Shown here piece after piece: positions 5,178-40,538 of a DNA stretch of 64,000 bases; positions within the stretch are counted from its first letter, which is position 1; each line of letters starts with the position of its first letter. Source of the stretch: Parcubacteria group bacterium (GTDB lineage Bacteria > Patescibacteriota > Minisyncoccia > Phycocordibacterales > Phycocordibacteraceae); contig JAQBRE010000003.1 in NCBI GenBank assembly GCA_028286605.1, forward strand, positions 17,275 to 81,274, written 5' to 3'. A model generated the notes under the pieces. It ran no database searches, was not told the DNA's origin, and worked only from the letters and a program-made list of their open reading frames with translations. The position numbers and the translations under genes were made by a program.

Positions 5178-8018
5178 ATGAACGCCAAGGAGAATGCACG
5201 CAGCCATGAGGCGACCTTCAAGGAGGCCTATGCGAAGCTGAACCCGGCCCAGAAGAAGGCGGTGGATACCGTTGAAGGACCGGTGCTGGTGATTGCCGGC
5301 CCAGGTACCGGCAAGACGCATATCCTGACGCTGCGCATCGCGAACATCCTGAATGTAACGCAGGCGAATGCCACCAATATTCTGGTGCTTACGTTTACGG
5401 AAAGCGCGGCGCGCACGGTACGTGCGCGCCTTTCGAATTTGATAGGCGAAGCTCCTGCGCGCGACGTATTCATTTCCACTTTCCACGGCTTCGCCGAACA
5501 TCTGCTGCAGCAGTATCAAGATTCATTTCCGCAGGCTATCGGGAAGCGGCTCGCTGGCGATGTAGAAAGCGCGCTGCTGTGGCGCGAAGTATTAGATACC
5601 GAAGAGCTCGTCGCGCTCCGTACTACGAAGAGCCCATACTTCTATCTGAAGGATCTTTCCATGCTTCGTAACGATTTGCTACGCGAACGCATCACTCTGG
5701 ATGCATACCGCGCATGGGCGAATGAAGAAGCGGATCGCATCAAGAGCGACGAGTCGTTCACGTATGTGCGAGACAGCAAACATGGCGCGAAAGGTACGAT
5801 GAAGCCGGAGGGCTTCAAGAAGCTCGAGCGGTTGGAAAAAGTATTCGAAGCTGCGCGCTTGATCGAAGCGTACGAAGCATTGAAAGAGGAACGCGACGTA
5901 TATGACTTCGCGGACGTATTGCGCATTGCCGTTGATGGCTTAGCGCAAGATCCGGAATTGCGCGCGACGATTCAGGAGCAGTATCAGTACGTGCTTGCAG
6001 ACGAGCATCAGGATGCAAACGCATTGCAGCATGCGCTGCTGGATGTGCTTGCCTATGACGAGCATCCGAATATCTTCGTGGTGGGGGATGAGAAGCAGGC
6101 CATATATCGATTCCAAGGAGCGGACAGCTCAGGTTTCGGCAGTTTTATGGAGCATTTTCCTCGTACCGAGGTGATAGCGCTCGATACGAGCTATCGCTCG
6201 CGTCAGGGCATTCTGGACGCCGCACACGCCCTTATACAGGGCGTTCCAGCAGCGAATGGCGCCCATATGCAGCTGGTGGGTTCAGAGCTTCCGGCGAGCA
6301 TTTCAGTGCTTGCAGCGCCCGACCCGTTGGCCGAACGAGACCAGATTGCGCAGCTCATTTCTGACGCGATTGATGGGGGGACGGAGCCGCACGAAATCGC
6401 CGTCATATCCGCGCGCAACAGTACCGCAGACCAGTTCGCAGACGCTTTGCAGGCGCGCGGCGTACCGATGCTTCGTGCGGGCGATGTCCTATTAAGTAGC
6501 CGTCCTATCATGCGCGCGATACTTGCGTTGATGCGCGCGGTTGCGGACCCGCTTGATTCTGCCTCGCTGCGCGAGGCGCTGCTTGCGCCGTGGTGGCCGC
6601 TCACGCTCACCGAGCGCGCGGAACTTCTGCGCCGGAATCGCGACAACGATCTCCCGCTCTCGCTTGAAACGAGCGTGCCACAAATTTCAAAGACAATAGC
6701 GTCGCTTCGCGACGCCGTACTCACCGAAGCTCCGCTCCCGCTTCTCTCTAAGATTCTCGTTGAATCCGGCGCACGCGCGTTCCTTCTTTCACACGCAGAC
6801 TACTTCGAAGACATCACGCTTATGCGCAAAGTGTTTATGCATATCGAAGAACTTGTCGCCCGCAATCCGGATCAATCCTTTGCAGACATCGTCCGTACAT
6901 TCACGCAGGCGAATGAGCATGGCCTCGAGAACGTGAAGACGAGTATCACGCTAACGGAAGGGAAGGTGACGGTTATAACCGCGCACAAGGCGAAGGGAAT
7001 GGAATTCAAGAAAGTATTTGTCGTAGGAATGAACGCACGGCAGTGGGAGAAGGGCGGCATGCCTGCAAAGATCCCTTCGCCCGTGGATCAGACCCGAAGC
7101 CTTGAAGACATCACGAAGCTTTTCTATGTGGCAATAACGCGTGCGAAAGATGAGCTCGTATTTTCATATGCAGTGGAAAGCGCGGACGGTCGCGACACGC
7201 CGCCCTCAGCACTACTACCAGAAAGCCTTCCTGCTATCGCACCCAGCTTCGATCCGTTGCCGGTGCTGCATACGACCATTGAAGCATCGAAGCTCGTATG
7301 CGAGCTGGTGCATGAATTCCTCACCAAGGATGGTCTCTCGCCCTCTGCATTCAATGAGTATCTGGAATCACCAGCGACATTCTTCGCTCGTCGTGTACTG
7401 CGCCTGCATGAGGCAGAGGCGCCCGCAACGGCGATAGGAATCGCCGTACACGCCGGCATCGCTGCGTACCTGGAAGCGAAAGACGAAGATGCTGCGTACG
7501 CCGCGCTGACTCGCCAACTGAAGAAATCCCTCCTGCAGCGTAACGCCGCGTATGACCGCGTCGTTACGCACGCACGCGAAAGCCTCGCGAGCTACATCGC
7601 TCACGACGGCACGCTGAAAGAACCTATCGCTATCGAGAAAGCCTATTCAATAAGCCAGACAATTGCCGGCCATGATATCAAGCTGCAGGGAAAGGTGGAT
7701 GCGATTTTCAATACGCCGAACGGTGAATGCATCGTGGATTTCAAGACCTCCAGCGACGTCCATATAAAAGATGAGAAGCACGCGCGCCAGCTCGCATTCT
7801 ATGATCTGCTGCTTCGCGCGAACGGACACAACACCACGACGGCAAGCATCGTGCAGGTAGGTCCTGAACATGTAGAAGAATTTCCCGTGCCGCTGAACGA
7901 CGAAACGCGCAGCGCGCTCGTGCAGACACTCGAAGAAGTTATCACTGAACTCTGGGATGGCACCTGGCGCAAGGGCGAACCTTCCGTCTACGACGACCTC
8001 CTCAAGCTTTTTATATAA
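5178..8018 (+). CDS. UvrD/PcrA-family superfamily-1 DNA helicase fused to C-terminal PD-(D/E)xK (RecB/AddA-like) nuclease domain
   Basis: Helicase motifs I AGPGTGKTH, II VLADEHQDAN, III GDEKQAIYRFQGA, IV TSYRS, V-VI VITAHKAKGMEFKKVFVVG; C-terminal GKVDAIFNTPNGECIVDFKTS...QLAFYDLLL is a RecB-type nuclease motif. GGAGG SD 4 nt upstream. Confidence 0.8.
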   Translation: MNAKENARSHEATFKEAYAKLNPAQKKAVDTVEGPVLVIAGPGTGKTHILTLRIANILNVTQANATNILVLTFTESAARTVRARLSNLIGEAPARDVFISTFHGFAEHLLQQYQDSFPQAIGKRLAGDVESALLWREVLDTEELVALRTTKSPYFYLKDLSMLRNDLLRERITLDAYRAWANEEADRIKSDESFTYVRDSKHGAKGTMKPEGFKKLERLEKVFEAARLIEAYEALKEERDVYDFADVLRIAVDGLAQDPELRATIQEQYQYVLADEHQDANALQHALLDVLAYDEHPNIFVVGDEKQAIYRFQGADSSGFGSFMEHFPRTEVIALDTSYRSRQGILDAAHALIQGVPAANGAHMQLVGSELPASISVLAAPDPLAERDQIAQLISDAIDGGTEPHEIAVISARNSTADQFADALQARGVPMLRAGDVLLSSRPIMRAILALMRAVADPLDSASLREALLAPWWPLTLTERAELLRRNRDNDLPLSLETSVPQISKTIASLRDAVLTEAPLPLLSKILVESGARAFLLSHADYFEDITLMRKVFMHIEELVARNPDQSFADIVRTFTQANEHGLENVKTSITLTEGKVTVITAHKAKGMEFKKVFVVGMNARQWEKGGMPAKIPSPVDQTRSLEDITKLFYVAITRAKDELVFSYAVESADGRDTPPSALLPESLPAIAPSFDPLPVLHTTIEASKLVCELVHEFLTKDGLSPSAFNEYLESPATFFARRVLRLHEAEAPATAIGIAVHAGIAAYLEAKDEDAAYAALTRQLKKSLLQRNAAYDRVVTHARESLASYIAHDGTLKEPIAIEKAYSISQTIAGHDIKLQGKVDAIFNTPNGECIVDFKTSSDVHIKDEKHARQLAFYDLLLRANGHNTTTASIVQVGPEHVEEFPVPLNDETRSALVQTLEEVITELWDGTWRKGEPSVYDDLLKLFI

Positions 8019-8025
8019 AAGATGG

Positions 8026-8056
8026 AGCCCTCGATGTAACGAGGGCTCCTTTTTCC
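8026..8056. terminator. bidirectional rho-independent terminator (ggagccctcg-atgtaa-cgagggctcc-ttttt)
   Basis: 10-bp perfect stem, T5 downstream, A-rich upstream. Confidence 0.75.
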
Positions 8057-8224
8057 AGCGAGGGCGATCACACAATCAGAATCGATGTTCCTTTGTGTCC
8101 TTGAAGCTCAAGACCTACGGCGCGACCGTGGCCGAATCAGCATTGCAGCTAAGTTCTGGCTTCTCTAGATGGGAAGGAAAGCAGGGCTGGTACCCTCTTA
8201 CCTCTTCACCATCAGGCAAAATCA

Positions 8225-8252
8225 CCTAGAAATATAGTACTCTTTTAGTATA
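8225..8252 (-). promoter_or_regulatory. sigma70-like promoter candidate on minus strand (TTGACA-N16-TACTAT)
   Basis: Reverse complement of 8225-8252 reads TTGACAttttatactaaaagagTACTAT; points into an ORF-free 170-190 nt stretch ending at terminator 8026-8056. Confidence 0.3.
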
Positions 8253-8268
8253 AAATGTCAAGACTCGG

Positions 8269-8997
8269 CTATTTTGCCTTCGCGATCGCCTGATCCACGA
8301 TCTTCTTCATCGCATCGTAGGGAAGCGAGCCGCTGAGCGGGATGGACTTCTGACCGTGAATCACGATAACCGTGTATGGCGAACCTGAAGCGCCAATAGC
8401 GATAGCGTTCGAGATATCAGCATTCACGCGAGTTTGATACGTGTGTGCACCCAGGCAGGAGTCGAAGCGAACGGTGTCGATACCGAGCGCCTGCGCAACA
8501 TTGTCATAGCCGGAAGGATCGAACTGCTGATTGTCTGGCGCATACGTCTGAAGGAAATCGATGAAGCTCCAGAATGCGTTCGCGTTGCCAAGTGAAGAGG
8601 CGCACTCTGCGGCTTCGGCGTGCTGTTCGCTATTGGGGTACTCATCAATAAGCGGGAAGTGGCGATACACCCAGGCGACTTTTCCGGTCGGCCCATAGGT
8701 AACCATAAGCTGCTCCATCACTTTCTGGAATGATTTCGAATAGCTGGAATCGATGTCCGCATATTCCACGATAACGACGGACGCGCTCGGGCTGCCGATT
8801 ATGTGGTCTTGGCTGGTGATAGGAGCGAGTGCTGAAACATCACCCTTCGGCGGACCTAAGACATGAGTCGCGCGTACCACATACACGCTTATTGCGATCA
8901 TGATGCCGGCAACAATAATCGCACCAGGAAGGAACCAGCGATTCCGGTTCTCTTGCGTACGATGCAGTTCTTCCAGTGCCTGATCCTGTTCATCCAT
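8269..8997 (-). CDS. DsbA-like thioredoxin-fold protein, membrane-anchored, catalytic CxxC replaced by SSYS
   Basis: N-terminal TM helix (WFLPGAIIVAGIMIAISVYVV); VVIVEYADIDSSYSKSF aligns with DsbA/BdbD EFFDYQCPYCKRF with both Cys replaced by Ser; C-terminal GASGSPYTVIVIHGQ matches GVSGTPTFFING. Start at ATG 8997 (MDEQDQ...). Confidence 0.6.
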   Translation of the reverse strand: MDEQDQALEELHRTQENRNRWFLPGAIIVAGIMIAISVYVVRATHVLGPPKGDVSALAPITSQDHIIGSPSASVVIVEYADIDSSYSKSFQKVMEQLMVTYGPTGKVAWVYRHFPLIDEYPNSEQHAEAAECASSLGNANAFWSFIDFLQTYAPDNQQFDPSGYDNVAQALGIDTVRFDSCLGAHTYQTRVNADISNAIAIGASGSPYTVIVIHGQKSIPLSGSLPYDAMKKIVDQAIAKAK

Positions 8998-9106: not shown

Positions 9107-9427
9107 TCAGATGTGCTCGTGCGCGAAGCATATGCGCTCAGCAAGAATTTTCCCGTTAGGGCCGTCTATGATTCGTACGGTGAATTGCTCGCCGAAAGAA
9201 ACATAGACGGCTTCTTTGATGACATTGATCTTCTTCTTATCGAGCAAGCAGTCCCAGGTATGAACCTCGACGACGCGCTTGCCTTTGCACGAAAGAAAGG
9301 TGATTCGAGCATTCTCGATTTCTGCGGGATCGTATAGCTCCTTCATGAGACTTGTCTTCAGATTGATCTCAGCGCACCTGCGCACAATGGGTTCTGCCTC
9401 AGGCGGGCATCGGCCTTCAAATCTCAC
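9107..9427 (-). CDS. hypothetical protein (Cys-containing, 106 aa)
   Basis: GTG start with GGGGAG SD 7 nt upstream; no recognisable family. Confidence 0.4.
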   Translation of the reverse strand: MRFEGRCPPEAEPIVRRCAEINLKTSLMKELYDPAEIENARITFLSCKGKRVVEVHTWDCLLDKKKINVIKEAVYVSFGEQFTVRIIDGPNGKILAERICFAHEHI

Positions 9428-9520: not shown

Positions 9521-10099
9521 CTAGAAACCGAGCGTGTGCGTGATTGCGGGAGCTTCGGGAAGCGTTTCCCACGCACGCGTATCAATTTTCACGCTGCGGC
9601 TCGTCTTCAGGTCTTTATATTTGAGCGAGCCGTTCGTAAGCGCGTAGTCGTAGAGTTCGCGAGTGATGCGCACATCTTCGATGCAATACTTTCGCACTTT
9701 TTCATATTCGCCTGCGGCCCACCACTCAACGGCCTGCAACCCATTTCCGCCTTTTCCTTTTCCAAGCGTTGCTTCAGCGAGCGACTGCAGGCGTACGCGG
9801 CGGCCGAGCGCTTTCTGGAATTCAACGAGAAGGTCGAGAGATTTTATTTTCGTGAGGTCGCCCGGGTAATAGCGGTTAAGGATAGGAATATCGAACGTGT
9901 CGGAGTTGAAGCCGATGAGCATATCTGCGCGCTCAAGGATGGGCCAAAGCTGCGGGAATTCTTCTTTGGAATACGAGCTGTATTCGTTCGTTTCGGAATC
10001 GTGTATCCCAACTATCGATACCTCCATGCGCGAAAGATCGTTCCGGGCGAGGCTCGGAAAGGCATTAGCAGTTTCTATATCGAACGTGATTGCGCGCAT
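9521..10099 (-). CDS. DEDDy-type 3'-5' exonuclease, RNase H-like fold (PolB-exonuclease-related, YprB-like)
   Basis: Exo motifs ITFDIETANAF (DxE), SDTFDIPIL, YCIEDV. ATG at 10099 lies 2 nt after hisS stop. Confidence 0.6.
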   Translation of the reverse strand: MRAITFDIETANAFPSLARNDLSRMEVSIVGIHDSETNEYSSYSKEEFPQLWPILERADMLIGFNSDTFDIPILNRYYPGDLTKIKSLDLLVEFQKALGRRVRLQSLAEATLGKGKGGNGLQAVEWWAAGEYEKVRKYCIEDVRITRELYDYALTNGSLKYKDLKTSRSVKIDTRAWETLPEAPAITHTLGF

Positions 10100-10100
10100 A

Positions 10101-11366
10101 TTATTTTGAAACTTGAAGCAGGTATGAAGCGAAGTCCTGCTCATCAAGTGATTCTTCTGCGCCGGTATCGAGCTTCTTAAGGCGCATGTTGCCGGACTTC
10201 ACTTCATCAGGACCATAGGTAGTGAAATAGGGAATACCACGCTTCGCCGCTTCGCGGATCTGGTCGCCAAGGTTGCGGGAAGTGAGATTCATGAATACCC
10301 GGATGCCAGAAGCGCGCAGCGCCTCTGCGAACGTGCGTGCTTCTTCCAGGCCATCGGGAAAAGTACCTAAATAAAGCTGCGCTTTGCCTTCTCCATCGGG
10401 CATAATGTCGTGCGTCTCAAGGAAATCCATGAGCGTGACATCGCCGATAGCGAACCCGACTGCAGGAATCGGATCACCGCCGAAGAGCGAGACCAAGCGG
10501 TCATAGCGGCCTCCGCCGAAGATGGCACGTGGATTCTCCGGGTTCGTATCAAACACTTCGAACGTAATGCCGGTGTAATAATCGAAACCACGTACGAGCG
10601 TCGGATCAAATACCGCATTCGCTACGCCCTGTTCCTTTAGGAGAACGATAGTGCCCAGTATGTTGCGCTTCGCATCAACCAAGCTTGGCGAATCATTCGC
10701 GATGAGCGCGAGCGGGTCCGTCTGCGTAATCTCGCGTACGGCTGCATTGAAGACGCCTTCGGGCATCTTGTCCTTCTTATCGAGCAGGCGCATGTATTCC
10801 TTTATGCGATCACCAGTGAGGCCCGCTGCGCTGCATGCCTGCGTAAGCAATTCACGCGAATTGATGCGGACGATGAAGTCTTCATCTTTTGCGCCGAGGT
10901 CCTTAAGGACGCGTACAGAAAGCGAGACGACTTCGATATCGGCATCGCCGGCGGGAAGACCAAGAAGGTCAACGTCTGTCTGGAAGAACTCGCGGAGGCG
11001 GCCGCGTTGCGGCCGCTCGTAGCGGAACCGGTTACCGATAGAGAACCAGCGAAGAGGGAACACGAGCTCACGACGCTTTCCCGCCACCATGCGCGCAAGC
11101 GACGGTGTCATCTCTGGGCGAAGCGTCACACGACGATCGCCGCGATCCGTGAACGTGTATGTCTGTTCATTAACGATTTCCTCGCTCGTTTTCGCTTCAT
11201 AGAGCTCTGCACGCTCGAGTGGGGAGGCGTTATATTCCTCGTAGCCATAGAGGCCGAGGGTACGCCGAATCGCCGCGAAGACCGCTTCGCGCCTCGCAAA
11301 GTCGTTCGGATAGAAATCCCGTACGCCTTTATATGCCTCCGTGCTAAGCGGTTCATTCTCGCTCAT
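10101..11366 (-). CDS. hisS: histidine--tRNA ligase
   Basis: Class II HisRS motifs: RGVRDFYPNDFARREAV..., RLREFFQTDVDLLG, GGRYDRLVSLFGG. Confidence 0.9.
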   Translation of the reverse strand: MSENEPLSTEAYKGVRDFYPNDFARREAVFAAIRRTLGLYGYEEYNASPLERAELYEAKTSEEIVNEQTYTFTDRGDRRVTLRPEMTPSLARMVAGKRRELVFPLRWFSIGNRFRYERPQRGRLREFFQTDVDLLGLPAGDADIEVVSLSVRVLKDLGAKDEDFIVRINSRELLTQACSAAGLTGDRIKEYMRLLDKKDKMPEGVFNAAVREITQTDPLALIANDSPSLVDAKRNILGTIVLLKEQGVANAVFDPTLVRGFDYYTGITFEVFDTNPENPRAIFGGGRYDRLVSLFGGDPIPAVGFAIGDVTLMDFLETHDIMPDGEGKAQLYLGTFPDGLEEARTFAEALRASGIRVFMNLTSRNLGDQIREAAKRGIPYFTTYGPDEVKSGNMRLKKLDTGAEESLDEQDFASYLLQVSK

Positions 11367-13499: not shown

Positions 13500-13943
13500 A
13501 TGCGCATACATCTTTGGAACACTCTGCTTTCCCTATTTTTCGCCGTACTCATGGTTGCGGCTATCTGGTGGCTTTTTGCGACCGGCCGTCTCTTCTATCA
13601 GGTGCCGTTCCGCGATCTCCTCCTCCTCGCGCTTGCGACGTATCGTCTCATTCGCCTCTTCACGTATGACATCATCACGAAGTTCATTCGCGATTGGTTC
13701 GCAGGCGCACGTGAGAATTCTCTCGGCGGTACGCTCGGCGCGCTTCTGAATTGCCCGTGGTGCACCGGCCTCTGGTTCAGCTTCCTCGTGGTATTCAGCT
13801 ACTTCGCAACGCCGTATGCGTGGCCCGTGATAATTATCCTCGCCGTCGCAGGTATCGCTTCGTTCTTCATGACGCTTTCAAACCTTATCGGCTGGATGGC
13901 AGAAGGTCGCAAGCTTGATGTGCATAGCCGCTTCGGCGAGTAG
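13500..13943 (+). CDS. DUF1360-family membrane protein
   Basis: Conserved CPWCTGLW motif and four TM helices typical of DUF1360. Confidence 0.55.
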   Translation: MRIHLWNTLLSLFFAVLMVAAIWWLFATGRLFYQVPFRDLLLLALATYRLIRLFTYDIITKFIRDWFAGARENSLGGTLGALLNCPWCTGLWFSFLVVFSYFATPYAWPVIIILAVAGIASFFMTLSNLIGWMAEGRKLDVHSRFGE

Positions 13944-22719: not shown

Positions 22720-24666
22720 TTACATACTGCGGATCATGTCCTTCTCGATATCTTCGAAGGTGCCGCCGACCTTCTTGCCTGGGTTGAAGATGTTTTCAGG
22801 ATCGAATATACGCTTCGTTTCTGCGAAAAGGCTCACCATGTCCTGGCCGAACATCTGGGTGAGGTACGGAGTGCGGATGATGCCGTCATTATGTTCGCCG
22901 GTGGTGGAGCCGCCGTATTTAAGAACGATGTCGTAGACCTTCGGCGCGAGTTCGAGGATTATCTTTCTCGATTCAGGCTTAGAAACATCCATGAGCGGAA
23001 TGATATGGAAGTTACCGTTGCCGATGTGTCCGGCAATCGTATATATAAGGTCATATTTGCCAAGGAGCGCATTGAGTTCCGGAAGGAACTTCGGATAGGT
23101 GTCGGGCGGCACGACGAAGTCGTCGATGAACGGGGAAGCGTAGAGTCCCTTCAGGTTCTTGCGGAGAAGCGCAAAGCTTTCGCGACGCACGATCCAATAT
23201 TTCTCTGCAGCCTGTTCGTTCTTCGCGATACGTGTGGGCAGTTTCATCGAGGCGAGGGAAGCGCGCGCATCCTCTGCACGCTTCAGCGCGCGCTCTGCAG
23301 TTTCGTCCGAAAATTCAGCCATCAGGATAAGTTTCGGTATGCCGCCGGTGATTGCCATACCCACTTCAGGAATGAACGAAAGACCGAGGCGTGTGGCGCG
23401 AACAAGACCCATCTGCGAAAGCATTTGCGGCATGAACTGTACGGCAAGCTTCAGTGTGTGGTCGTCATAGGACTCGAATGATTCCGGATTGAACGGCAAG
23501 ACTTTCTTCACGACCTGTGGCAACGGATCGAGGCTCGTAAGGAAGACGATGAGCATGGCTCGATGCTTTTGCGGCTTCACTAACGAAAGCTTCGCTTTCG
23601 TGACGAGCGCGAGCGTCCCCTGCGCGCCACAAATAACTTTCGCCAAGTTGAACGTGCCAGTCTTCGGGTCATGAATATCCCACAATGCGTAGCCTGCAGA
23701 GTTCTTCGTTACATGCGGTCGTGCTTTCTCGATGGTCTTCGCGTTCGTGCTTATGAGTGCGCTCATGCGCTTGTATATAGAACCTTCAAGCGTCGGAAGC
23801 TGCTGCTTCGCAGCGAGTTCGCGTGCATTGAGCGCTTTGAATGTTGTCTGCGTACCATCTGAAAGCACGACATCGACCTCCTCAAGATACCTTGCCGTCT
23901 TGCCGTATTCGAGTGTGCGTTCACCGCCGGAATTATTGTTCACGATACCGCCCATCGCGCAGATTTCGCGCGAAGCAGGGTACGAGGGAAGTATGAAATC
24001 CTGCTTCAGCGTTTCCTTCTCGAAATCACGATAGAACACGCCTGGTTCAGTAACGGCATATCCGTGATCGCCTTCCGTTCCGACGGCGATCACTTTGTTC
24101 ATGTATTTGGTGAATACTGCGACGATAGAATCGGTGAGCGGTCCGCCGCTCATGTCGGTACCTGCCGAACGCGCGGTAACGGAAACATTCATGCCGTGCG
24201 CACGTGCGCCATTCGCTGCCTTTACGAGCTCGCTAACATCGTTCGCATCCTTTGGATAAACCACGAGCTGCGGCATCTTCGTGAAGAGGCTCGTGTCGCG
24301 CGAATACTTCGTGCGTTCTGCACTGCTTTCCTCAACGTCACCGGTTATGTGCGGCTGAATCATCTTGTAGAGCGGTGTGTGCTGTATCGAAACAGCAACC
24401 GGTACTGGCGCAGCGCTGATGCGTGCACGATTTACCTGCGGTCGCACCGGCACTTCGCGTGGTGCCTTCCGTTCTTTCACTGGCTTCATCTTCGGCTCCT
24501 TGATTGCCTTCGGAGCTTTCTGCACTCTCTCTTTCTTCTCGCGCTGTTTCCAGAATCGTTCTCCCGGATGATGCGTTCGCCATACCTCACGTACGGCACC
24601 ATATATGAATGCGAGCAGCACAACGAAACAGAGAATGATAATGAGATAGGCAAGGAGCGCGTACAT
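22720..24666 (-). CDS. FAD-binding oxidoreductase (GlcD/D-lactate dehydrogenase-like) with N-terminal TM helix and Lys-rich linker
   Basis: FAD_binding_4 segment VVYPKDANDVSELVKAANGARAHGMNVSVTARSAGTDMSGG and FAD-oxidase C-terminal domain. Confidence 0.75.
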   Translation of the reverse strand: MYALLAYLIIILCFVVLLAFIYGAVREVWRTHHPGERFWKQREKKERVQKAPKAIKEPKMKPVKERKAPREVPVRPQVNRARISAAPVPVAVSIQHTPLYKMIQPHITGDVEESSAERTKYSRDTSLFTKMPQLVVYPKDANDVSELVKAANGARAHGMNVSVTARSAGTDMSGGPLTDSIVAVFTKYMNKVIAVGTEGDHGYAVTEPGVFYRDFEKETLKQDFILPSYPASREICAMGGIVNNNSGGERTLEYGKTARYLEEVDVVLSDGTQTTFKALNARELAAKQQLPTLEGSIYKRMSALISTNAKTIEKARPHVTKNSAGYALWDIHDPKTGTFNLAKVICGAQGTLALVTKAKLSLVKPQKHRAMLIVFLTSLDPLPQVVKKVLPFNPESFESYDDHTLKLAVQFMPQMLSQMGLVRATRLGLSFIPEVGMAITGGIPKLILMAEFSDETAERALKRAEDARASLASMKLPTRIAKNEQAAEKYWIVRRESFALLRKNLKGLYASPFIDDFVVPPDTYPKFLPELNALLGKYDLIYTIAGHIGNGNFHIIPLMDVSKPESRKIILELAPKVYDIVLKYGGSTTGEHNDGIIRTPYLTQMFGQDMVSLFAETKRIFDPENIFNPGKKVGGTFEDIEKDMIRSM

Positions 24667-27369: not shown

Positions 27370-28512
27370 CTATGCGAGCGCCATTTGCGGCGTACCGTGC
27401 GTCATGAGCGTATCAAGAAAACTGCCGATCGGTGCGCTTGCTGAACAGACGACATTATCGCCGCCGCCATAATACACGCGGAGCGTGTCGTCTTTTATCG
27501 TTGCGCCGCAGCCGTATACGATTCCTGGCTTTCCTTCATTCTCATACGTAGCGTCAGGTACGAGCACTGGCAACGGCGCGCGCGCGATTATCTTCGTCGG
27601 ATCAAGCAAATCAAGAAGCGCTGCACCCATCTTATATTTGTGAGTCTCATCGTCATTCGCGTGATAGAGGAAGAGCCAGCCGAATGCTGTCTTAATCGGT
27701 GGCGGGCCGATGCTGCGCATGCGCTTGTGCCACGCGATCGTGCGATCAGGCATCGCATGAGGATTCGGGCTATCGATATGAGGAGAATCTGCGCCGATGC
27801 GCATCGGGTCGTTCATGTATTCGATGCGCACGCGATTCTCGTCGTCCGTATGCAGATTATGCATAAGCGCGAACTGTCCGTTCACTTTTTCAGGGAAGAG
27901 CACCCAATTCTTATGACGCTCGCCGGCAGGTGAAAGGAATGATGGCTTGCTCCAGTTCCAGCGATGGTTTATGAGGTCGTCGACATCAAGGGTGATTGCC
28001 GCGACGCGCATATTGTCCCAGCCGTCGAACATATTGAACGTCAGGTACAATTTATTATCTATGATGACGGCGCGCGGGTCTTCCGTGCCGCCCCAGCTAC
28101 CACCAGAAGGATACTGTACCGGGTCATAGCGATAATGAACGCCATCACGCAAGCCATCGGCAGCGTATACCGGAAAGGGAAGACGCTCATCAAAATTAAC
28201 GCCGTCCTTAGAGGAGGCATAGCCGATACGCGATACGCCGTCCGCACCTACGGCACGGTAGAACATATGCGTCCTTCCTCCAGCTTCAACGATCGCGGGA
28301 TTCAGCACTGATTCTTTTTCCCAGTGATAAGAACCGGTTCTAAGGATAGGATTCATCGCATTGCGCACGAGCTCCAGCGCTTCCTGCACCACTGCCTGTA
28401 TGCGCGGCTGTGAGAAGAACGCATGCAGCATCTGCCACAGTCCATAGAAAAAGAGGCCGGTGACGGAGAACGCTATGAATACTGCGACGAAAAAGATTAT
28501 GAGATCACTCAT
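27370..28512 (-). CDS. GH130 (DUF377) family glycosidase-like protein with N-terminal TM anchor
   Basis: WEKESVLNPAIVEAGGRTHMFYRAVGADGVSRIGYASSKDG and C-terminal LRVYYGGGD match GH130. Confidence 0.7.
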   Translation of the reverse strand: MSDLIIFFVAVFIAFSVTGLFFYGLWQMLHAFFSQPRIQAVVQEALELVRNAMNPILRTGSYHWEKESVLNPAIVEAGGRTHMFYRAVGADGVSRIGYASSKDGVNFDERLPFPVYAADGLRDGVHYRYDPVQYPSGGSWGGTEDPRAVIIDNKLYLTFNMFDGWDNMRVAAITLDVDDLINHRWNWSKPSFLSPAGERHKNWVLFPEKVNGQFALMHNLHTDDENRVRIEYMNDPMRIGADSPHIDSPNPHAMPDRTIAWHKRMRSIGPPPIKTAFGWLFLYHANDDETHKYKMGAALLDLLDPTKIIARAPLPVLVPDATYENEGKPGIVYGCGATIKDDTLRVYYGGGDNVVCSASAPIGSFLDTLMTHGTPQMALA

Positions 28513-36126: not shown

Positions 36127-36642
36127 TTACCGCGTAAGGCAGAATTCGCTTGATTCAGTAATGGCTGATTCAGCTGCGCCAGGTGCACAGACGGTGATGC
36201 GACCTGTCGAAGCGCTCTCTGTGATGGTGTATTTCGACGTGTATTCTTCGTCGCTTGAAGCACAGGCAGCTGAAGTACAGGTATTCGTTCCGTCTTTCGG
36301 GTCAGTGGGCATTTCTGAAATGAAGTTTGGAACGAGACATGGTCGCAAGTCGTACGCATTTCCACCTCCATTACCTATAAATTCAGTTTCATTCGGCAAT
36401 GGGTTTAGACAGGTACCGACCTGATTATTAAAGATGCCTTTATTCTCTGCAAGGCGTTCTCCAATAGCGTTCAGGATCGCATTCACATCGCTTTCTCGTT
36501 GCGCATTGCGCGCCTCGGCAAATTGACGCAAAGGATTGATAGCAAGAAGCACGATGCTTGCCAGTACGGCAATCATGCCGATGACGACCAATATTTCGAT
36601 GAGGGTGAATCCTTGAGCAGGAATTTTTCTTCGCGTGTGCAT
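36127..36642 (-). CDS. type IV pilin (prepilin-type N-terminal cleavage/methylation domain)
   Basis: N-terminal GFTLIEILVVIGMIAVLASIV class III signal; C-terminal Cys pair. Confidence 0.8.
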   Translation of the reverse strand: MHTRRKIPAQGFTLIEILVVIGMIAVLASIVLLAINPLRQFAEARNAQRESDVNAILNAIGERLAENKGIFNNQVGTCLNPLPNETEFIGNGGGNAYDLRPCLVPNFISEMPTDPKDGTNTCTSAACASSDEEYTSKYTITESASTGRITVCAPGAAESAITESSEFCLTR

Positions 36643-36740
36643 AGGTATACGTGTTATGGGTATACCTTTAGTTTGAAAGAATACGTATCCGTTTCATATG
36701 AATATACGGGTACTAACCGCTTTGCCGCTCGAGGTTTTCT

Positions 36741-37163
36741 TTATATTGCGTTCACTTCCTTCCAAGATGTGATTGTGGGAACCCCAAAAACACCCGGCAT
36801 GTTTATGTGGCCCTCAATGCGCACCGAAGCAGTACGTGCAGAGGCGGTTGTGATGACCGTCGCGTCTAAGGCTATTATTGTGATACTTACGATATGACAA
36901 ACATGCGTGGGGTCTGTAAACACATCGATACCTGTGCTTGGTATGTGATAGGTGGTTGGATCAATAGTGAGTGAATATGCAGTGGCATACAAGCAGGACA
37001 GAGCTTGATACCGTGCCTGCAGGTGTGCTCCGTAATCTGATGTATCAAAGCGAGCAAGCAGTGCCGTCGTTCCGGCATTTAGCGTATATAAGGCAAGAAG
37101 AAACGCTATGATGAGTGCCGATGCAAGGGCGATATATCCGTTCTTTCTTTGGAGCGCTCTCAT
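36741..37163 (-). CDS. pilus-associated membrane protein (pseudopilin-like, non-canonical N-terminus)
   Basis: N-terminal hydrophobic helix IALASALIIAFLLAL; located between pilin genes with 4-bp overlap. Confidence 0.4.
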   Translation of the reverse strand: MRALQRKNGYIALASALIIAFLLALYTLNAGTTALLARFDTSDYGAHLQARYQALSCLYATAYSLTIDPTTYHIPSTGIDVFTDPTHVCHIVSITIIALDATVITTASARTASVRIEGHINMPGVFGVPTITSWKEVNAI

Positions 37164-37576
37164 GGTAAATCTATATACGTACGTCCAGTAAAGGTGCGCA
37201 TGAGCACCTTTCCGTCATCCGTGTGCGCAGTCAGAGTGAAGGAACTGTCGACGAACGCCGGTTCTCCCCCAGTCTTGCTCGTCTGTATGAATTTCAAATC
37301 ATGCACCTGCACCTGGTTTCCGCTAACTGCTTGTCCTGTTGGAAATCCTTGCAGAAGCGTTGAGCTAGACAGATGGAAAGAAGAAGCGGCTCCGCCGCTT
37401 CCGATTGTGTAGTCGATCGTCTCGAGAAGGAACGTGCCTTCTTCTAAGAGAAGTGACTGCGTTTCAGTGCGCGCCGCAGCGGCGCGCATGCCCCCAAGAG
37501 CAGGAAGTACACCACTCATAAGTAATCCGAAGAGGCCCAGATATACTATCGTTTCGATAAGAGTGAAAGCACGCAT
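37160..37576 (-). CDS. minor pilin / pseudopilin (prepilin-type N-terminal domain)
   Basis: AFTLIETIVYLGLFGLLM N-terminus. Confidence 0.7.
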   Translation of the reverse strand: MRAFTLIETIVYLGLFGLLMSGVLPALGGMRAAAARTETQSLLLEEGTFLLETIDYTIGSGGAASSFHLSSSTLLQGFPTGQAVSGNQVQVHDLKFIQTSKTGGEPAFVDSSFTLTAHTDDGKVLMRTFTGRTYIDLP

Positions 37577-37577
37577 A

Positions 37578-39083
37578 TCACGAGCTCGTTACTACGGTAA
37601 GATATCCCGTCCCGTCTGAACCGACCGAACCGACATACAAAACATTTTGTCTGCAGGTCATTGCTGTCGCGGTTCCTTGTGGAATAGCTATGTGGGAATA
37701 CAGAACAGGGTTCGCAGAATCCTGAATATTCCAAAGCTGTAGCTCATCGTTCGTCAGCACAAATGCAAGGAAGCCTCGAATTAAAATACTTTGCACTCCG
37801 CGATGGTTCAGGTTGTTTCCAATGTCGACTCCGCCTACACGGGTAAGAGAAGCATCCTGCGTAAGGATTGAGAATTCTTCAGAAGCGCCATTCGCGTAGG
37901 AGCGACCACTGAACAGATACGAGCCTGCTCGCACTAGTACGCGCACGAATCCTGCACCTGAAAAACTATGAGATCCAATTTCAACAGGATGAGCAGGATC
38001 ATGCACGTCTTCGGCGATAATGGCTTTTCCAGAGCCGCTATTATCATCAGTCCCTACATATATTGTGGTGCGTGCTGCGACAACTGCATTCACACCGCGT
38101 CCGATAGCGACTCCTCCTATACGAGTAGGGACGTATTGATTGCTCATATCTACGATCTGCAGTTCCTGGCCGCCACCTGTTTTCGAAAGACCTACATATG
38201 CGGTGTTCGCACGATAGGCAACAGCATCTCCTGGGGAAGTTGCGCCGCTTGCCGTAAGAGCTAGTGCAGGGCTCGTGGTAGGAATTTGAAAATTTGCAGA
38301 GGGATCCGGCGTTGTTCCTGGCGTAAAGTATGTCTGCAGTTGTCTACAATTTACTGTGCTGTAGGCGCAGTTAGGCATGTCCGTACTTGAGAATCCATTT
38401 GCTGCGTACATATGATCATCTCCCGCGGCAAGTGCCGTAAGACCTATTTTTGACGGACTTGCGTTGTCGAAAGAATTTATATAGGCGGGCTGTTGTGCTT
38501 GGTCTGTTATACGAAAGAAAAACAAGGTCGGGTCACTCGCCTGCGTAGTGCTTGCGACCCCAACGGCAAGGACATTTCCCTGGACTGCAAGAGATGATAT
38601 GGGGTAATGGCCAGCCGGAATAGTTCCGGGAAGAAGGAAACCAGGCATCAGCTCGTACGAACCCAGGATGTGCGGATGCGTCCAGTCTCCTAAGATGAAC
38701 GGTTGGCAGGGGTGACTACTGACATTCTTATAATTAGCGACGAGCGTGCTGTATGTGGCTGACTGCGGAACACCTTCAAGACTTGTCCATGTCGCCGTGC
38801 TGGTTAGTAGAACAGCACTGTCATCAAACGGTCTCAAGATTAGAGAGGTGCTGATACCATTTGCAGTCGTAGTTGCTATGGCAGTCAGTCCAGTAAAATC
38901 AGTACGAGCCAGCAGTAACGAATGCTCAAGGAGTGCTTGCGCCTTGCGATTTGCTTCAGCTTCTGTAAATGCATTCTGAAGTACGATGGGCATACGGTAT
39001 GCGACCAGCCCCGCTGCCACTATTGCCGTTGTCAGAATAACGAAGGCAAGCATGAGTTCGATTATCGAGAAACCTTTTTTCAT
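37578..39083 (-). CDS. large pilin-like protein (501 aa) with prepilin-type N-terminus
   Basis: GFSIIELMLAFVILTTAIVAAGL N-terminus followed by about 460-aa presumably beta-rich domain (possible tip/adhesin subunit). Confidence 0.6.
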   Translation of the reverse strand: MKKGFSIIELMLAFVILTTAIVAAGLVAYRMPIVLQNAFTEAEANRKAQALLEHSLLLARTDFTGLTAIATTTANGISTSLILRPFDDSAVLLTSTATWTSLEGVPQSATYSTLVANYKNVSSHPCQPFILGDWTHPHILGSYELMPGFLLPGTIPAGHYPISSLAVQGNVLAVGVASTTQASDPTLFFFRITDQAQQPAYINSFDNASPSKIGLTALAAGDDHMYAANGFSSTDMPNCAYSTVNCRQLQTYFTPGTTPDPSANFQIPTTSPALALTASGATSPGDAVAYRANTAYVGLSKTGGGQELQIVDMSNQYVPTRIGGVAIGRGVNAVVAARTTIYVGTDDNSGSGKAIIAEDVHDPAHPVEIGSHSFSGAGFVRVLVRAGSYLFSGRSYANGASEEFSILTQDASLTRVGGVDIGNNLNHRGVQSILIRGFLAFVLTNDELQLWNIQDSANPVLYSHIAIPQGTATAMTCRQNVLYVGSVGSDGTGYLTVVTSS

Positions 39084-39493
39084 AGCGTGTGCATAACCGT
39101 AATGGCCTCTTCTGAATTGCTATCAACTTCCCACGCACCCGTGCTTGAGGCTGCACGCCTAAGCCAACCAACGGGGTGTAGGTTTCCCAAGCCAAGAAAT
39201 TGAATGATGCCGGATGCCGTGCCGTCTTTGTTTTCTGCAAGAGGATACGATTGGTCTGATTCACCGGCGGCTCGTATGACAAGTGCGTGAGGTGCATCAG
39301 ACCAATACAGGCTGTGCGGTATTCCGTGCATCGCTTCGGCACGCGCATGGCGGGCGATAGCCGCCATGCGCGTGCCGTCGGACTGCGCAAGCGCAGCTTC
39401 AAATTGCTGTATGCCTGGCCCGATCGTTACGCTTGCAAGCAGGGCAGCGAGAGAAATACTTATCAATAACTCTACCAAGGTGACTCCGCGCAT
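39080..39493 (-). CDS. pseudopilin (GspH/FimT-like, prepilin-type N-terminus)
   Basis: GVTLVELLISISLAALLASV. Confidence 0.65.
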   Translation of the reverse strand: MRGVTLVELLISISLAALLASVTIGPGIQQFEAALAQSDGTRMAAIARHARAEAMHGIPHSLYWSDAPHALVIRAAGESDQSYPLAENKDGTASGIIQFLGLGNLHPVGWLRRAASSTGAWEVDSNSEEAITVMHTL

Positions 39494-39496
39494 ATA

Positions 39497-40537
39497 TTAC
39501 TGAGCGCTTATTCCCTGAGTCAGACCATAGATCGGCGTGATGATCGCGAGCGCGACGAATCCTACGATGCAGCCCATGATGAGCATTAATACAGGCTCAA
39601 TGAGTGCCTGCAGCGTGCGTGATCGCTCTTCAAGATACTGTTCATATATCTGCGCAACATTTCGCAAACTTTCGGGAAGCGTACCGGTTAATTCACCTGC
39701 CGTAATCAGCTGCACCGCAACAGAGGGGAAGAGCGTTACTCGTTCAGAAAATCCCTCTGCAACTGGTCGTCCTTCGCTTATGCGCGTATACAAATGCGTA
39801 AGCGCTTCTTCGTACTGACTATGCTGGATACTCTTGGCAAGCATATCCAACGCCGTAAGTATGCCTACGCCGCTCTCAAGCAACGTTGAAAGCGTGCGCG
39901 CAATAGAGGCAGCATGATAGTAAAGAATCATAGAACCGAAAACGGGAATACTCAGCAGTATGCGATCGCGCAACTGTCTGAAACGCGAGAAGCGAAGAGC
40001 GTAGACGAACGCACCACTCGAAAGAACGATAAGAACGAGCACCAGCCATCCATAGTTTGATGTGAATTCAGTCAGGCCGATGAGAATACGAGTCGGTAGC
40101 GGTAATGTCTGATGGAATCCTTTAAACAAAGGCAAGATCTTAGGAAAGGCGTACAGCGTTAGGAACGCGGTCAGTGCGACCGTGGCGCATACGATGATAA
40201 GCGGATAGAGCGCAGCACTCATCATGCGCCGTTTGTCATCACGATTTCGTGTACAGAGCAGCGCAATTTGCTCAAGATGATTCGAGAGCGATCCGCTCGT
40301 TTCCCCAACTTGCACTAAGCTCACATGGAGCGGATCGAAGATGCGCGGGAATCGAGCAAGCGCATCAGAAAGACGTTTGCCGCGAAGCACCTCTTCACTA
40401 ATTGCTTTTATTACGCGTACGTACGCAGGGCGCGAAGCGCCCTGCTGTATCAGTTCGAGGGCACTAATAATAGGAATACCAGCACGCAGAAAGAGTGATA
40501 ATCGTCGCACGAAAAGAATTACTTCATCGGTACGCAT
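39497..40537 (-). CDS. pilC: type IV pilus assembly platform protein PilC (GspF family)
   Basis: Two T2SSF repeats; start set at ATG 40537 abutting pilB stop (ORF-track start 40606 overlaps pilB). Confidence 0.8.
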   Translation of the reverse strand: MRTDEVILFVRRLSLFLRAGIPIISALELIQQGASRPAYVRVIKAISEEVLRGKRLSDALARFPRIFDPLHVSLVQVGETSGSLSNHLEQIALLCTRNRDDKRRMMSAALYPLIIVCATVALTAFLTLYAFPKILPLFKGFHQTLPLPTRILIGLTEFTSNYGWLVLVLIVLSSGAFVYALRFSRFRQLRDRILLSIPVFGSMILYYHAASIARTLSTLLESGVGILTALDMLAKSIQHSQYEEALTHLYTRISEGRPVAEGFSERVTLFPSVAVQLITAGELTGTLPESLRNVAQIYEQYLEERSRTLQALIEPVLMLIMGCIVGFVALAIITPIYGLTQGISAQ

Positions 40538-40538
40538 A

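What the first reader, a model, noticed from the sequence alone, without database searches (positions are those of the whole stretch)
8269..8997. DsbA-like thioredoxin-fold protein with the CxxC active site replaced by SSYS
The protein aligns well to DsbA/BdbD (N-terminal TM anchor, thioredoxin fold, helical insertion, C-terminal cis-Pro-loop region). Both catalytic cysteines are serines (EYADIDSSYSKSF vs EFFDYQCPYCKRF).

A redox-dead DsbA scaffold suggests a non-catalytic role such as chaperone or substrate holder. It could also be a pseudo-enzyme partner of another oxidoreductase, which would be interesting for an organism with a type IV pilus. Pilins usually need disulfide formation, and the major pilin here has a Cys pair.
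Basis: seen in the sequence. Interest (0 to 1): 0.5.

Follow-up and report, generated by a model that had tools for sequence, protein, structure and literature searches.

The report
Cysteine-less DsbA ortholog in Paceibacterota
This gene encodes a membrane-anchored protein with the DsbA (disulfide-bond-forming enzyme) fold in which both catalytic cysteines have been replaced, and the same loss is conserved in many related ultra-small (CPR) bacteria, so the protein is probably kept for a job that is not the usual redox chemistry.

Summary

It is not an error or a one-off. Of the 120 closest database proteins, 113 have Ser at the first Cys position. So do 30 of the 80 best GTDB species loci, all Paceibacterota/Patescibacteria.

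CxxC relatives occupy the same HisRS / RNase_H-like / DsbA / UvrD-like synteny, so this is the lineage's ordinary DsbA ortholog with its active site lost. The number of loss events is unresolved (one to a few).

The protein is under purifying selection:
- It diverges only about 1.17x as fast as HisRS.
- Ser84, the cis-Pro and a second Cys pair (C132/C181) are about 100% conserved.
- Position 87 drifts (S/A/G/T/V) and the residue before the cis-Pro is relaxed.

The most likely role is redox-independent binding (holdase, folding factor or scaffold) of exported proteins. This is inferred, not shown. No DsbB, VKOR or second DsbA lies in the window; the whole genome could not be checked. Méheust 2019 reported only that 89% of CPR homologs keep CxxC. 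I rate this a new variant of a known kind, of moderate interest.

The parts
8269..8997 (-). Complete gene for the 242-aa Ser-type (Cys-less) DsbA-like protein, stop codon included
   Evidence: ORF listing and sequence. A 100% identical protein, P0001, is named 'oxidoreductase [Parcubacteria group bacterium]'. Pfam Thioredoxin_4 and DSBA match.
8863..8940 (-). N-terminal signal-anchor / TM helix (about residues 20-45) with the conserved motif P24-x-A26-I27-x-x-A30-G31
   Evidence: Hydropathy scan and AF2 helix 22-45. The motif is conserved at 90-100% in the Ser-type, sister CxYC and outer CPFC groups. Arg residues before the helix suggest an N-in, domain-out topology; this is a prediction.
8272..8829 (-). 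Extracytoplasmic DsbA-fold domain (residues 57-242): thioredoxin core plus helical insertion (about residues 123-200)
8737..8748 (-). S84-S85-Y86-S87 (TCC AGC TAT TCG), the position of the catalytic CxxC. S84 is the residue just before helix alpha1 (N-cap position).
   Evidence: Alignment to 4n30 CPFC. S84 is 98% conserved in 115 Cys-less homologs; position 87 is S 65%, otherwise A/G/T/V. Helix 85-104 in the model.
8602..8604 (-). Cys132 (TGC), first half of the invariant second Cys pair, in the helical domain
   Evidence: 100% conserved in 120 homologs and in all 88 loci. It aligns with the second, non-catalytic disulfide of PaDsbA2 and Wolbachia alpha-DsbA1 (PMC3839904).
8455..8457 (-). Cys181 (TGC), second half of the invariant second Cys pair
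   Evidence: Same evidence as for Cys132.
8377..8379 (-). Pro207 (CCA), the cis-Pro of the thioredoxin-fold substrate-binding loop. The preceding residue is Ser here (S/A/T across the clade; Thr in CPFC relatives).
   Evidence: P207 is 100% conserved. Position 206 is T in 100% of outer CxxC orthologs but A 44% with S/T in Ser-type proteins.
9521..11366 (-). Context only: the upstream syntenic genes HisRS (10101-11366) and an RNase_H_2-like 3'-5' exonuclease (9521-10144). They define the orthologous position of the gene.
   Evidence: The same gene order occurs in L001-L007. Neighbour clusters 1 and 2 are present in 26 of 31 Ser-type loci.
5178..8018 (+). Context only: a convergent UvrD/PDDEXK-type helicase gene, the conserved downstream neighbour
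   Evidence: Neighbour cluster 3 is present in 29 of 31 Ser-type loci.

Best explanation
This gene is the orthologous, vertically inherited DsbA/BdbD/MdbA-type protein of a Paceibacterota (Parcubacteria, CPR) lineage. It is anchored in the cytoplasmic membrane by one N-terminal helix, with the DsbA-fold domain predicted to lie outside the cell.

In this lineage the nucleophilic Cys of the CxxC site became Ser, and the second Cys then became free to vary. The protein therefore cannot carry out thiol-disulfide exchange at the canonical site (shown).

It has nevertheless been kept under nearly the same purifying selection as its catalytic orthologs. The fold, the cis-Pro loop that forms the peptide-binding platform of DsbA proteins, the TM motif and a second (probably structural) Cys pair are all retained (shown).

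The most likely function is therefore a redox-independent part of the ancestral job: binding unfolded or partly folded exported proteins at the membrane surface as a holdase, folding factor or scaffold. This would be analogous to the non-catalytic b/b' domains of PDI (inferred). Ser84 is most simply explained as the isosteric N-cap of helix alpha1, which keeps the groove geometry (inferred).
For: Canonical site absent:
- SSYS aligns to CPFC, and the protein has no other CxxC.

Fold:
- AF2 pLDDT 92.5.
- Foldseek agrees.

Clade-wide trait:
- 113 of the 120 nearest proteins have Ser at position 84.
- 30 of the 80 best GTDB species loci are Ser-type.

Orthology with catalytic forms:
- CGYC, CAYC and CPFC proteins sit in the same DUF1360 / MTS / bPH_2 / HisRS / RNase_H_2 / DsbA / UvrD-like synteny.

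Purifying selection:
- The Ser-type domain diverges 1.17x as fast as HisRS in the same genome pairs, against 1.04x for CxxC orthologs.
- 25 columns are invariant, including C132, C181, P207, W109, R112 and P115.

Pattern of constraint fits loss of chemistry with retention of the scaffold:
- Position 87 drifts (S/A/G/T/V).
- The residue before the cis-Pro relaxes from an invariant T to A/S/T.
- No new conserved residues appear relative to the CxYC sister group.
- SPYC and APYC proteins nearest to the clade look like intermediates in which Cys1 was lost first.

Helix cap:
- Helix alpha1 starts at residue 85, so S84 occupies the cap position.

Precedents for non-redox use of this fold:
- Degenerate domains sit next to CPFC domains in tandem multi-DsbA proteins of related organisms.
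Against: - No binding or chaperone activity has been measured, and no substrate is indicated by gene context. The neighbours are cytoplasmic housekeeping genes.
- A pure scaffold role does not obviously require 98-100% conservation of Ser84. Other independent Cys-less domains carry D, E, A or V there. Ser may therefore have a chemical role.
- Exported proteins in the window carry even numbers of Cys (2, 2, 6, 2, 4, 2), and the protein keeps its own Cys pair. Disulfides are therefore probably still made by something unidentified.
- Whether a catalytic DsbA paralog, VKOR or DsbB exists elsewhere in the genome is unknown.
- The topology (domain outside) is predicted only.
Confidence: 0.5

Rival explanations
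1. Ser-dependent enzyme. As in kappa-class glutathione transferase (DsbA-L/GSTK1) and HCCA isomerase, the Ser at the first-Cys position at the N-terminus of helix alpha1 activates or stabilises a thiolate. The thiolate could belong to a low-molecular-weight thiol or to a substrate Cys. The protein would then catalyse thiol transfer, isomerisation or disulfide shuffling without cysteines of its own.
For: - GSTK1 has a DsbA fold with an S16-x-x-S19 active centre (PMC10295636).
- Ser84 is 98-100% conserved while position 87 drifts. This is the pattern expected if only the first residue is chemically needed.
- Two lineages (L022, L044) encode Ser84 with AGC rather than TCN, so Ser is maintained across codon classes or was reached twice.
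Against: - No new conserved residues that could form a cofactor site appear relative to the CxYC sister proteins.
- The domain is predicted to be extracytoplasmic, where a glutathione-like cofactor is not expected. That CPR bacteria generally lack glutathione synthesis is my own knowledge and was not tested here.
- Ser is also a favoured helix N-cap, which explains its conservation without chemistry.
Confidence: 0.12
2. Pseudo-enzyme subunit of a membrane complex. The conserved TM helix and dead DsbA domain dock onto another membrane protein, such as an oxidase (VKOR, DsbB or a new type), the Sec/YidC machinery or the pilus assembly platform. The protein would act as an adaptor or regulator and would not bind substrates itself.
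For: - The TM motif P-x-A-I-x-x-A-G is 90-100% conserved in all groups of the family. That is more than a passive anchor needs.
- In CxxC relatives the gene is often followed by DsbB or by an unannotated multi-TM protein with an invariant membrane CAAC motif. The family therefore does work with membrane partners.
- A DUF1360 membrane protein with an invariant CPWC is syntenic (window 13500-13943).
Against: - No candidate partner is adjacent in any of the 31 Ser-type loci, and none of DsbB, the cluster-9 protein or a second DsbA is in the 64-kb window.
- The TM motif is ancestral and not specific to the Ser-type clade.
- DUF1360 lies 4.5 kb away on the other strand and its function is unknown.
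Confidence: 0.15
3. Redox activity has moved to the remaining Cys pair. C132/C181 in the helical domain would act as a redox-active or redox-sensing disulfide.
For: - Both Cys are 100% conserved.
- In Wolbachia alpha-DsbA1 the homologous pair modulates the enzyme's reaction rates and was proposed to be regulatory (PMC3839904).
Against: [quoted passage not shown]
- The pair is equally invariant in all catalytic CxxC orthologs. It is therefore an ancestral structural or regulatory feature, not a replacement.
- The two Cys are 49 residues apart and are not at a helix N-terminus next to the cis-Pro loop, as far as the secondary-structure map shows. Distances could not be measured.
Confidence: 0.07
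4. Decaying relic or artefact. The gene would be a dead DsbA on its way to loss, or the Ser codons would be sequencing or assembly errors.
For: The catalytic residues are gone. CPR genomes are reductive and, at least for C7867-007 and -008, lack quinone biosynthesis, which is needed to re-oxidise DsbA through DsbB or VKOR (PMC4508563).
Against: - The reading frame is intact in more than 110 protein clusters and 30 species-level genomes.
- The divergence rate is close to that of HisRS.
- Ser84, P207, C132 and C181 are invariant or nearly so.
- Restoring the two Cys codons would need independent changes in two codons, and the same residues are seen in many independent assemblies.
Confidence: 0.04

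Closest known systems
Gram-positive-type membrane-anchored DsbA proteins: B. subtilis BdbD (3eu3), Actinomyces/Corynebacterium MdbA (4z7x, 5c00), and CPR family fam000318 of Méheust et al. 2019
   Same: - Same Pfam family (Thioredoxin_4).
- Orthologous by synteny to CPFC-bearing Paceibacterota proteins.
- Méheust et al. describe this CPR family as MdbA-like and possibly pilin-folding (PMC6744442).
   Different: - No CxxC (S-S-Y-S), so there is no thiol-disulfide exchange at the canonical site.
- The residue before the cis-Pro is relaxed.
- No adjacent DsbB or VKOR.
- Méheust et al. state only that CxxC is conserved in 89% of CPR members. The text I read does not describe the Cys-less remainder.
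Wolbachia alpha-DsbA1 (3f4r) and P. aeruginosa DsbA2 (4n30)
   Same: - They are the best sequence matches among solved structures (profile E 3e-16 and 1e-14).
- They share the extra Cys pair in the helical domain, which aligns with C132/C181.
   Different: - Both are catalytic (CxxC) periplasmic enzymes of proteobacteria with DsbB partners.
- Sequence identity is only 20-23%.
Kappa-class glutathione transferase (GSTK1 / DsbA-L) and HCCA isomerase
   Same: They have a DsbA-type fold with Ser in place of the first Cys. GSTK1 has S16-x-x-S19 (PMC10295636). They are the only well-studied DsbA-fold proteins I know of with a natural SxxS site; that last point is my own knowledge.
   Different: - They are soluble, GSH-dependent dimers inside cells or organelles.
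- No GSH-site residues could be identified in the protein studied here.
Non-catalytic thioredoxin-fold modules: PDI b/b' domains, ERp29, UGGT thioredoxin-like domains and the YjbH adaptor
   Same: They use the thioredoxin or DsbA fold without redox chemistry to bind client proteins. This rests on my own knowledge of these families. YjbH (6ghb) and UGGT appear as structural matches.
   Different: - They are not homologous at the family level.
- They are eukaryotic ER proteins or cytoplasmic adaptors.
- None is a membrane-anchored bacterial DsbA ortholog.

Membership tests
DsbA/BdbD-type thiol:disulfide oxidoreductase (Pfam PF13462 Thioredoxin_4 / PF01323 DSBA) | Sequence-profile match above the curated threshold | tested here: met
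   Thioredoxin_4 scores 53.4 bits (cutoff 23.2) and DSBA 38.7 bits (cutoff 25.6).
DsbA/BdbD-type thiol:disulfide oxidoreductase | Thioredoxin fold with an inserted alpha-helical domain | tested here: met
   [not shown]
DsbA/BdbD-type thiol:disulfide oxidoreductase | Redox-active CxxC at the N-terminus of helix alpha1 | tested here: not met
   S84-S-Y-S87 aligns to CPFC. There is no CxxC anywhere in the protein. The trait is conserved across the clade.
DsbA/BdbD-type thiol:disulfide oxidoreductase | Conserved cis-Pro loop opposite the active site | tested here: met
   P207 is 100% conserved. The cis conformation itself could not be checked because no coordinates were available.
DsbA/BdbD-type thiol:disulfide oxidoreductase | Extracytoplasmic location (signal peptide or TM anchor) | tested here: met
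   A single N-terminal hydrophobic helix at residues 20-45, preceded by Arg residues. The topology is predicted, not measured.
DsbA/BdbD-type thiol:disulfide oxidoreductase | Re-oxidising membrane partner (DsbB/BdbC or VKOR) encoded in the genome | tested here: inconclusive
   No DsbB-like, cluster-9-like or second DsbA ORF is in the 64-kb window, and none is in the flanks of 31 Ser-type loci. DsbB (PF02600) is adjacent in 4 CxxC-type loci. No VKOR model was run on the window.
alpha-DsbA1 / PaDsbA2-like subgroup | Second Cys pair in the helical domain | tested here: met
   C132 and C181 align with the extra Cys of 4n30 and are 100% conserved. Formation of the disulfide is not testable here.
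Kappa GST / HCCA isomerase (Ser-type DsbA-fold enzymes) | Ser at the first-Cys position of helix alpha1 | tested here: met
   S84 is 98-100% conserved. The GSTK1 motif S16xxS19 is taken from PMC10295636.
Kappa GST / HCCA isomerase | Homology to the family at sequence or close structural level | tested here: not met
   [not shown]
Kappa GST / HCCA isomerase | Glutathione binding and a dimeric assembly | not testable with these tools
   This needs biochemistry or a complex structure.
NCBIfam NF041057 Rcas_1661 thioredoxin-like (seleno)lipoprotein | Score above the curated cutoff | tested here: not met
   69.5 bits against a cutoff of 190. The protein has no lipobox Cys and no Sec/Cys active site.

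The most novel reading that the evidence does not exclude
A whole clade of Paceibacterota has converted its only housekeeping DsbA into a cysteine-free protein that is still required at the cell surface. One possibility is a Ser84-dependent catalyst, or thiolate-binding partner, in a disulfide-forming route that works without a DsbA active-site disulfide. Supporting this, exported proteins and the protein itself still carry paired cysteines, and related genomes lack quinone synthesis. The other possibility is a dedicated non-redox folding factor for pilins and other surface proteins. Either would be a new functional class of bacterial DsbA.
Probability: 0.25. Interest if true: 0.7.

Novelty: new variant of a known kind. 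Interest (0 to 1): 0.45.

Why it matters
DsbA-type proteins are treated as markers of oxidative protein folding. In CPR bacteria they have been proposed to fold type IV pilins, the organelles thought to mediate attachment and DNA uptake in these episymbionts.

A species-rich clade keeps the protein under strong selection after discarding both catalytic cysteines. This has three consequences:
- Annotation as 'oxidoreductase' or 'protein-disulfide isomerase' is wrong for these genomes.
- The DsbA scaffold has a selectable function independent of its redox chemistry.
- It is unclear how these cells, which appear to lack quinones, form the disulfides implied by the paired Cys in their exported proteins.

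The clade also offers a natural series (CPFC, then CxYC, then SxYC, then SxYx) for studying how an enzyme becomes a pseudo-enzyme.

Tried and rejected
- **Sequencing error or a CxxC elsewhere:** rejected. There are only two Cys, 49 residues apart, and the Ser is conserved in 113 of 120 homologs.
- **Selenocysteine or recoding:** rejected. There is no in-frame TGA, and the NCBIfam selenolipoprotein family match is far below cutoff.
- **Paralog rather than ortholog:** rejected by the shared synteny with CxxC forms.
- **Clean single-loss scenario:** not sustained. Ser-type proteins form one clade in the point-estimate NJ tree, but bootstrap support is 12/100. A HisRS + RNase_H-like tree nests two CAYC lineages among them (32/100 for monophyly).
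- **Exact-sequence contig look-up for the window's own protein:** found nothing.
- **Search for a partner in the window:** profiles for DsbA, DsbB and two unannotated neighbour families found nothing with E<0.3.
- **Even-Cys count:** an FAD-linked oxidase (22720-24666) and a GH130 protein (27370-28512), each with an N-terminal hydrophobic segment, were first counted as exported. I removed them after Pfam suggested cytoplasmic enzymes.
- **Literature searches:** searches for a described Cys-less DsbA in Patescibacteria, or for pseudo-enzyme or SxxS DsbA, found nothing specific. Only the 89% figure in Méheust 2019 turned up.
- **Intergenic region 8020-8268:** no Rfam family and no conservation in related loci.
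- **dN/dS:** not attempted, because the available DNA pairs are at most 63% identical at the protein level, so synonymous sites are saturated. A relative-rate yardstick against HisRS was used instead.
- **Distances in the model** (S84 to P207, C132 to C181): could not be measured because coordinates are not exposed.

Full report
**1. The observation**

The window carries an ORF on the minus strand from 8997 (ATG) to 8269 (stop), encoding 242 aa. The peptide EYADIDSSYSKSF is present, and residues 84-87 are Ser-Ser-Tyr-Ser (TCC AGC TAT TCG, nt 8737-8748).

- Pfam places the protein in Thioredoxin_4 (4.5e-14) and DSBA (1.2e-9), both above their curated cutoffs.
- The best match among solved structures, P. 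aeruginosa DsbA2 (4n30), aligns its CPFC exactly with SSYS within a nearly identical flank (eyad.. / EYADLECPFCK).
- The protein has only two cysteines, C132 and C181, so no displaced CxxC exists. There is no in-frame TGA.
- An AlphaFold2 model built on 45 homologs is confident (mean pLDDT 92.5). It shows a cytoplasmic N-terminal helix, a TM helix (22-45), a thioredoxin core and a helical insertion.

The only correction is that the N_methyl pilin at 36127-36642 has six Cys rather than one pair.

**2. Not an accident of this genome**

An identical protein is deposited as 'oxidoreductase [Parcubacteria group bacterium]'.

- Of the 120 nearest 90%-clusters (45-100% identity, many independent samples and sources), 113 have Ser at the first Cys position. 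Five have CxxC, and two have Ala or Asp.
- Position 87 is Ser in 65% and otherwise Ala, Gly, Thr or Val.
- A scan of one genome per GTDB species found 579 relatives. Of the 80 best loci, all from Patescibacteria/Paceibacterota MAGs, 30 are Ser-type and 50 are CxxC, mostly CPFC.
- In a library clustered at 50% identity the wider family is large (20,076 proteins at E<=1e-3) and overwhelmingly CxxC: 246 of 272 domains among the best 150 proteins.

**3. Orthology and history**

Ser-type genes sit in a conserved housekeeping neighbourhood. The order is DUF1360, MTS methyltransferase, a small ORF, bPH_2, HisRS, an RNase_H_2-like exonuclease, a small ORF, the DsbA-like gene, and a convergent UvrD/PDDEXK helicase.

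CxxC proteins occupy the same position: CGYC in L007, and CAYC, CPFC and CPYC forms in the HisRS-linked loci. The Ser-type gene is therefore the ortholog of the lineage's ordinary DsbA, not a side-copy.

- A neighbour-joining tree with the motif columns masked puts all Ser-type proteins in one clade, next to an unusual 'D-I-D-C-x-Y-C' group.
- That clade has only 12/100 bootstrap support.
- A tree of the neighbouring HisRS + exonuclease places two CAYC lineages among the Ser-type ones, with 32/100 support for monophyly.
- Two Ser-type lineages use AGC instead of TCN for Ser84.

I conclude that there were one to a few losses. The count is unresolved.

SPYC and APYC proteins whose nearest relatives are Ser-type suggest that the nucleophilic Cys went first and the second Cys then drifted. 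The Pro of CPxC had already lost constraint in the CxYC group.

**4. Selection**

- In the same genome pairs, the Ser-type DsbA domain has diverged 1.17 times as much as HisRS. For CxxC orthologs the figure is 1.04.
- Twenty-five columns are invariant across 45 diverse members, including C132, C181, P207 (the cis-Pro), W109, R112 and P115, as well as P24, I27 and G31 in the TM helix.
- Compared with the CxYC sister group, the only changes specific to the Ser-type clade are C84S, loss of C87, and relaxed constraint at G138, S184 and T206 (the residue before the cis-Pro). In DsbA proteins T206's counterpart tunes the active-site Cys; that is my own knowledge of the family.
- No new conserved residues appear.

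This is the signature of lost redox chemistry with a retained scaffold. It does not look like decay, and it does not look like the invention of a new active site.

Ser84 is under constraint (98-100%) although neighbouring positions vary freely. In the model it immediately precedes helix alpha1 (residues 85-104), which is the N-cap position.

**5. What it probably does**

- *Shown:* the protein cannot perform canonical DsbA chemistry, it is conserved, and it keeps the cis-Pro loop, the fold, the anchor and the second Cys pair.
- *Inferred:* it retains the binding half of the DsbA function at the outer face of the membrane, as a holdase, folding factor or scaffold for exported proteins. This would resemble the PDI b/b' domains, or the DsbA-fold adaptor YjbH and the UGGT thioredoxin-like domains that appear among the structural matches.

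Related organisms also encode tandem proteins of three to six DsbA domains in which one degenerate domain (DPFS, EPFS, AAST) accompanies CPFC domains. Non-catalytic DsbA modules therefore recur in this group.

Rivals:
- (b) A pseudo-enzyme subunit of a membrane complex, suggested by the strongly conserved TM motif. No partner gene is adjacent.
- (c) Redox activity transferred to C132/C181. This is unlikely, because the pair is equally invariant in the catalytic orthologs and the homologous disulfide of Wolbachia alpha-DsbA1 is reported not to be redox-active (PMC3839904).
- (d) A relic or an error. The conservation data contradict this.

**6. The unresolved puzzle**

- No second DsbA, DsbB or similar ORF lies in the 64-kb window or in the flanks of 31 Ser-type loci.
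- Some CxxC-type loci carry DsbB or an unannotated multi-TM protein with an invariant CAAC motif immediately downstream.
- The related genomes C7867-007 and -008 are reported to lack quinone biosynthesis (PMC4508563). This would deprive a DsbB or VKOR of its electron acceptor, and it gives a rationale for abandoning the redox site.
- Yet the six predicted exported or anchored proteins with any Cys in this window all have even numbers (2, 2, 6, 2, 4, 2). By parity alone the chance of that is 1/64. The sample is small and the topology prediction crude.
- The protein also keeps its own Cys pair.

How disulfides are made here is therefore open. The whole genome could not be interrogated with the tools available.

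**7. Relation to what is known**

Méheust et al. 2019 described this CPR-enriched family (fam000318). They called it MdbA-like, proposed that it folds pilins, and noted that the CxxC is conserved in 89% of CPR members and that VKOR is sometimes adjacent (PMC6744442). The existence of Cys-less members is thus implicit in the literature.

My searches found no description of the following:
- the clade itself;
- its orthology to the catalytic forms;
- the conserved Ser;
- the selection acting on it.

I classify it as a new variant of a known kind: a naturally redox-inactive, membrane-anchored DsbA ortholog. It fails the defining CxxC test for a DsbA oxidoreductase while clearly belonging to that evolutionary family.

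**8. Verdict**

The finding is real and reproducible, and it is moderately interesting (0.45). The pilus connection and the chaperone role remain hypotheses. The decisive work is a whole-genome census for oxidases in Ser-type versus CxYC genomes, a cysteine-parity analysis of their exported proteomes, and simple biochemistry on the soluble domain with and without Ser84.

Noticed in passing
window 8020-8268 (- strand): A 250-nt gap lies between the DsbA-like stop codon and the convergent helicase gene. It contains a good sigma-70-like promoter match (TTGACA-16-TACTAT, 8261 to 8234) and a 10-bp bidirectional terminator hairpin (8024-8049). The region folds unusually well as RNA (-83.4 kcal/mol, z = -4.6). 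There is no Rfam family and no conservation in the related loci I fetched. It could be a small RNA or a structured 3' UTR.
   Followed up: partly
L048, L049, L054, L060, L065-L070, L074, L080, L081, L085, L086 (for example L060:6384-6947): An unannotated protein of about 180 aa with 4-6 TM segments lies immediately downstream of the CPFC-type DsbA in about 16 Paceibacterota loci. It has an invariant 'GCAACG' motif inside a TM helix and a C-terminal Cys, and it has no Pfam hit. It is often found beside a P-type ATPase, a multicopper oxidase and a DsbD-like protein. It is a candidate new membrane redox partner, analogous to DsbB or VKOR. It is absent from all Ser-type loci.
   Followed up: partly
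window 13500-13943 (+), and homologs such as L022:206-700: A DUF1360 membrane protein is syntenic with the DsbA locus in Ser-type and CxYC-type genomes. It carries an invariant CPWC motif at the start of a TM helix in all 15 homologs I saw. Its function is unknown, and the side of the membrane on which the motif lies was not determined.
   Followed up: no
P0122, P0123, P0129, P0135, P0175, P0228 and others (database relatives, not in the window): These are large proteins (400-1196 aa) made of two to six tandem DsbA-like domains. Several combine CPFC domains with one degenerate domain (DPFS, EPFS, CPFS, AAST, SRFT), an arrangement reminiscent of the catalytic and non-catalytic domains of PDI.
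   Followed up: partly
window 8863-8940 (-), residues 20-45 of the protein: The TM anchor has a sequence motif (P-x-A-I-x-x-A-G ... A) conserved at 90-100% across the Ser-type, CxYC and CPFC groups. That is more than a passive anchor would need and suggests helix-helix packing with a partner or with itself.
   Followed up: partly
window 36127-41798 (-): A type IV pilus-like cluster. It contains a T2SSE ATPase (40539-41798) and four to five pilin-like genes with N-terminal methylation motifs. The 171-aa pilin has six Cys and the 501-aa pilin-like protein has four. All Cys-containing predicted exported proteins in the window have even Cys counts.
   Followed up: partly
window 9107-9427 (-), and L001:7534-7911, L003:7549-7902, L007:4235-4600: A small ORF (about 80-125 aa, no Pfam hit) always lies between the RNase_H-like gene and the DsbA-like gene, but it is poorly conserved in sequence. 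I did not test whether it is a real gene or whether it is related to the DsbA-like protein.
   Followed up: no
window 22720-24666 (-): An FAD-linked oxidase (FAD_binding_4 + FAD-oxidase_C) with an N-terminal hydrophobic segment, conserved in the wider synteny (also in L001 and L003). The charged residues after the segment suggest a cytoplasmic catalytic domain. It probably has nothing to do with sulfhydryl oxidation, but this was not examined.
   Followed up: no
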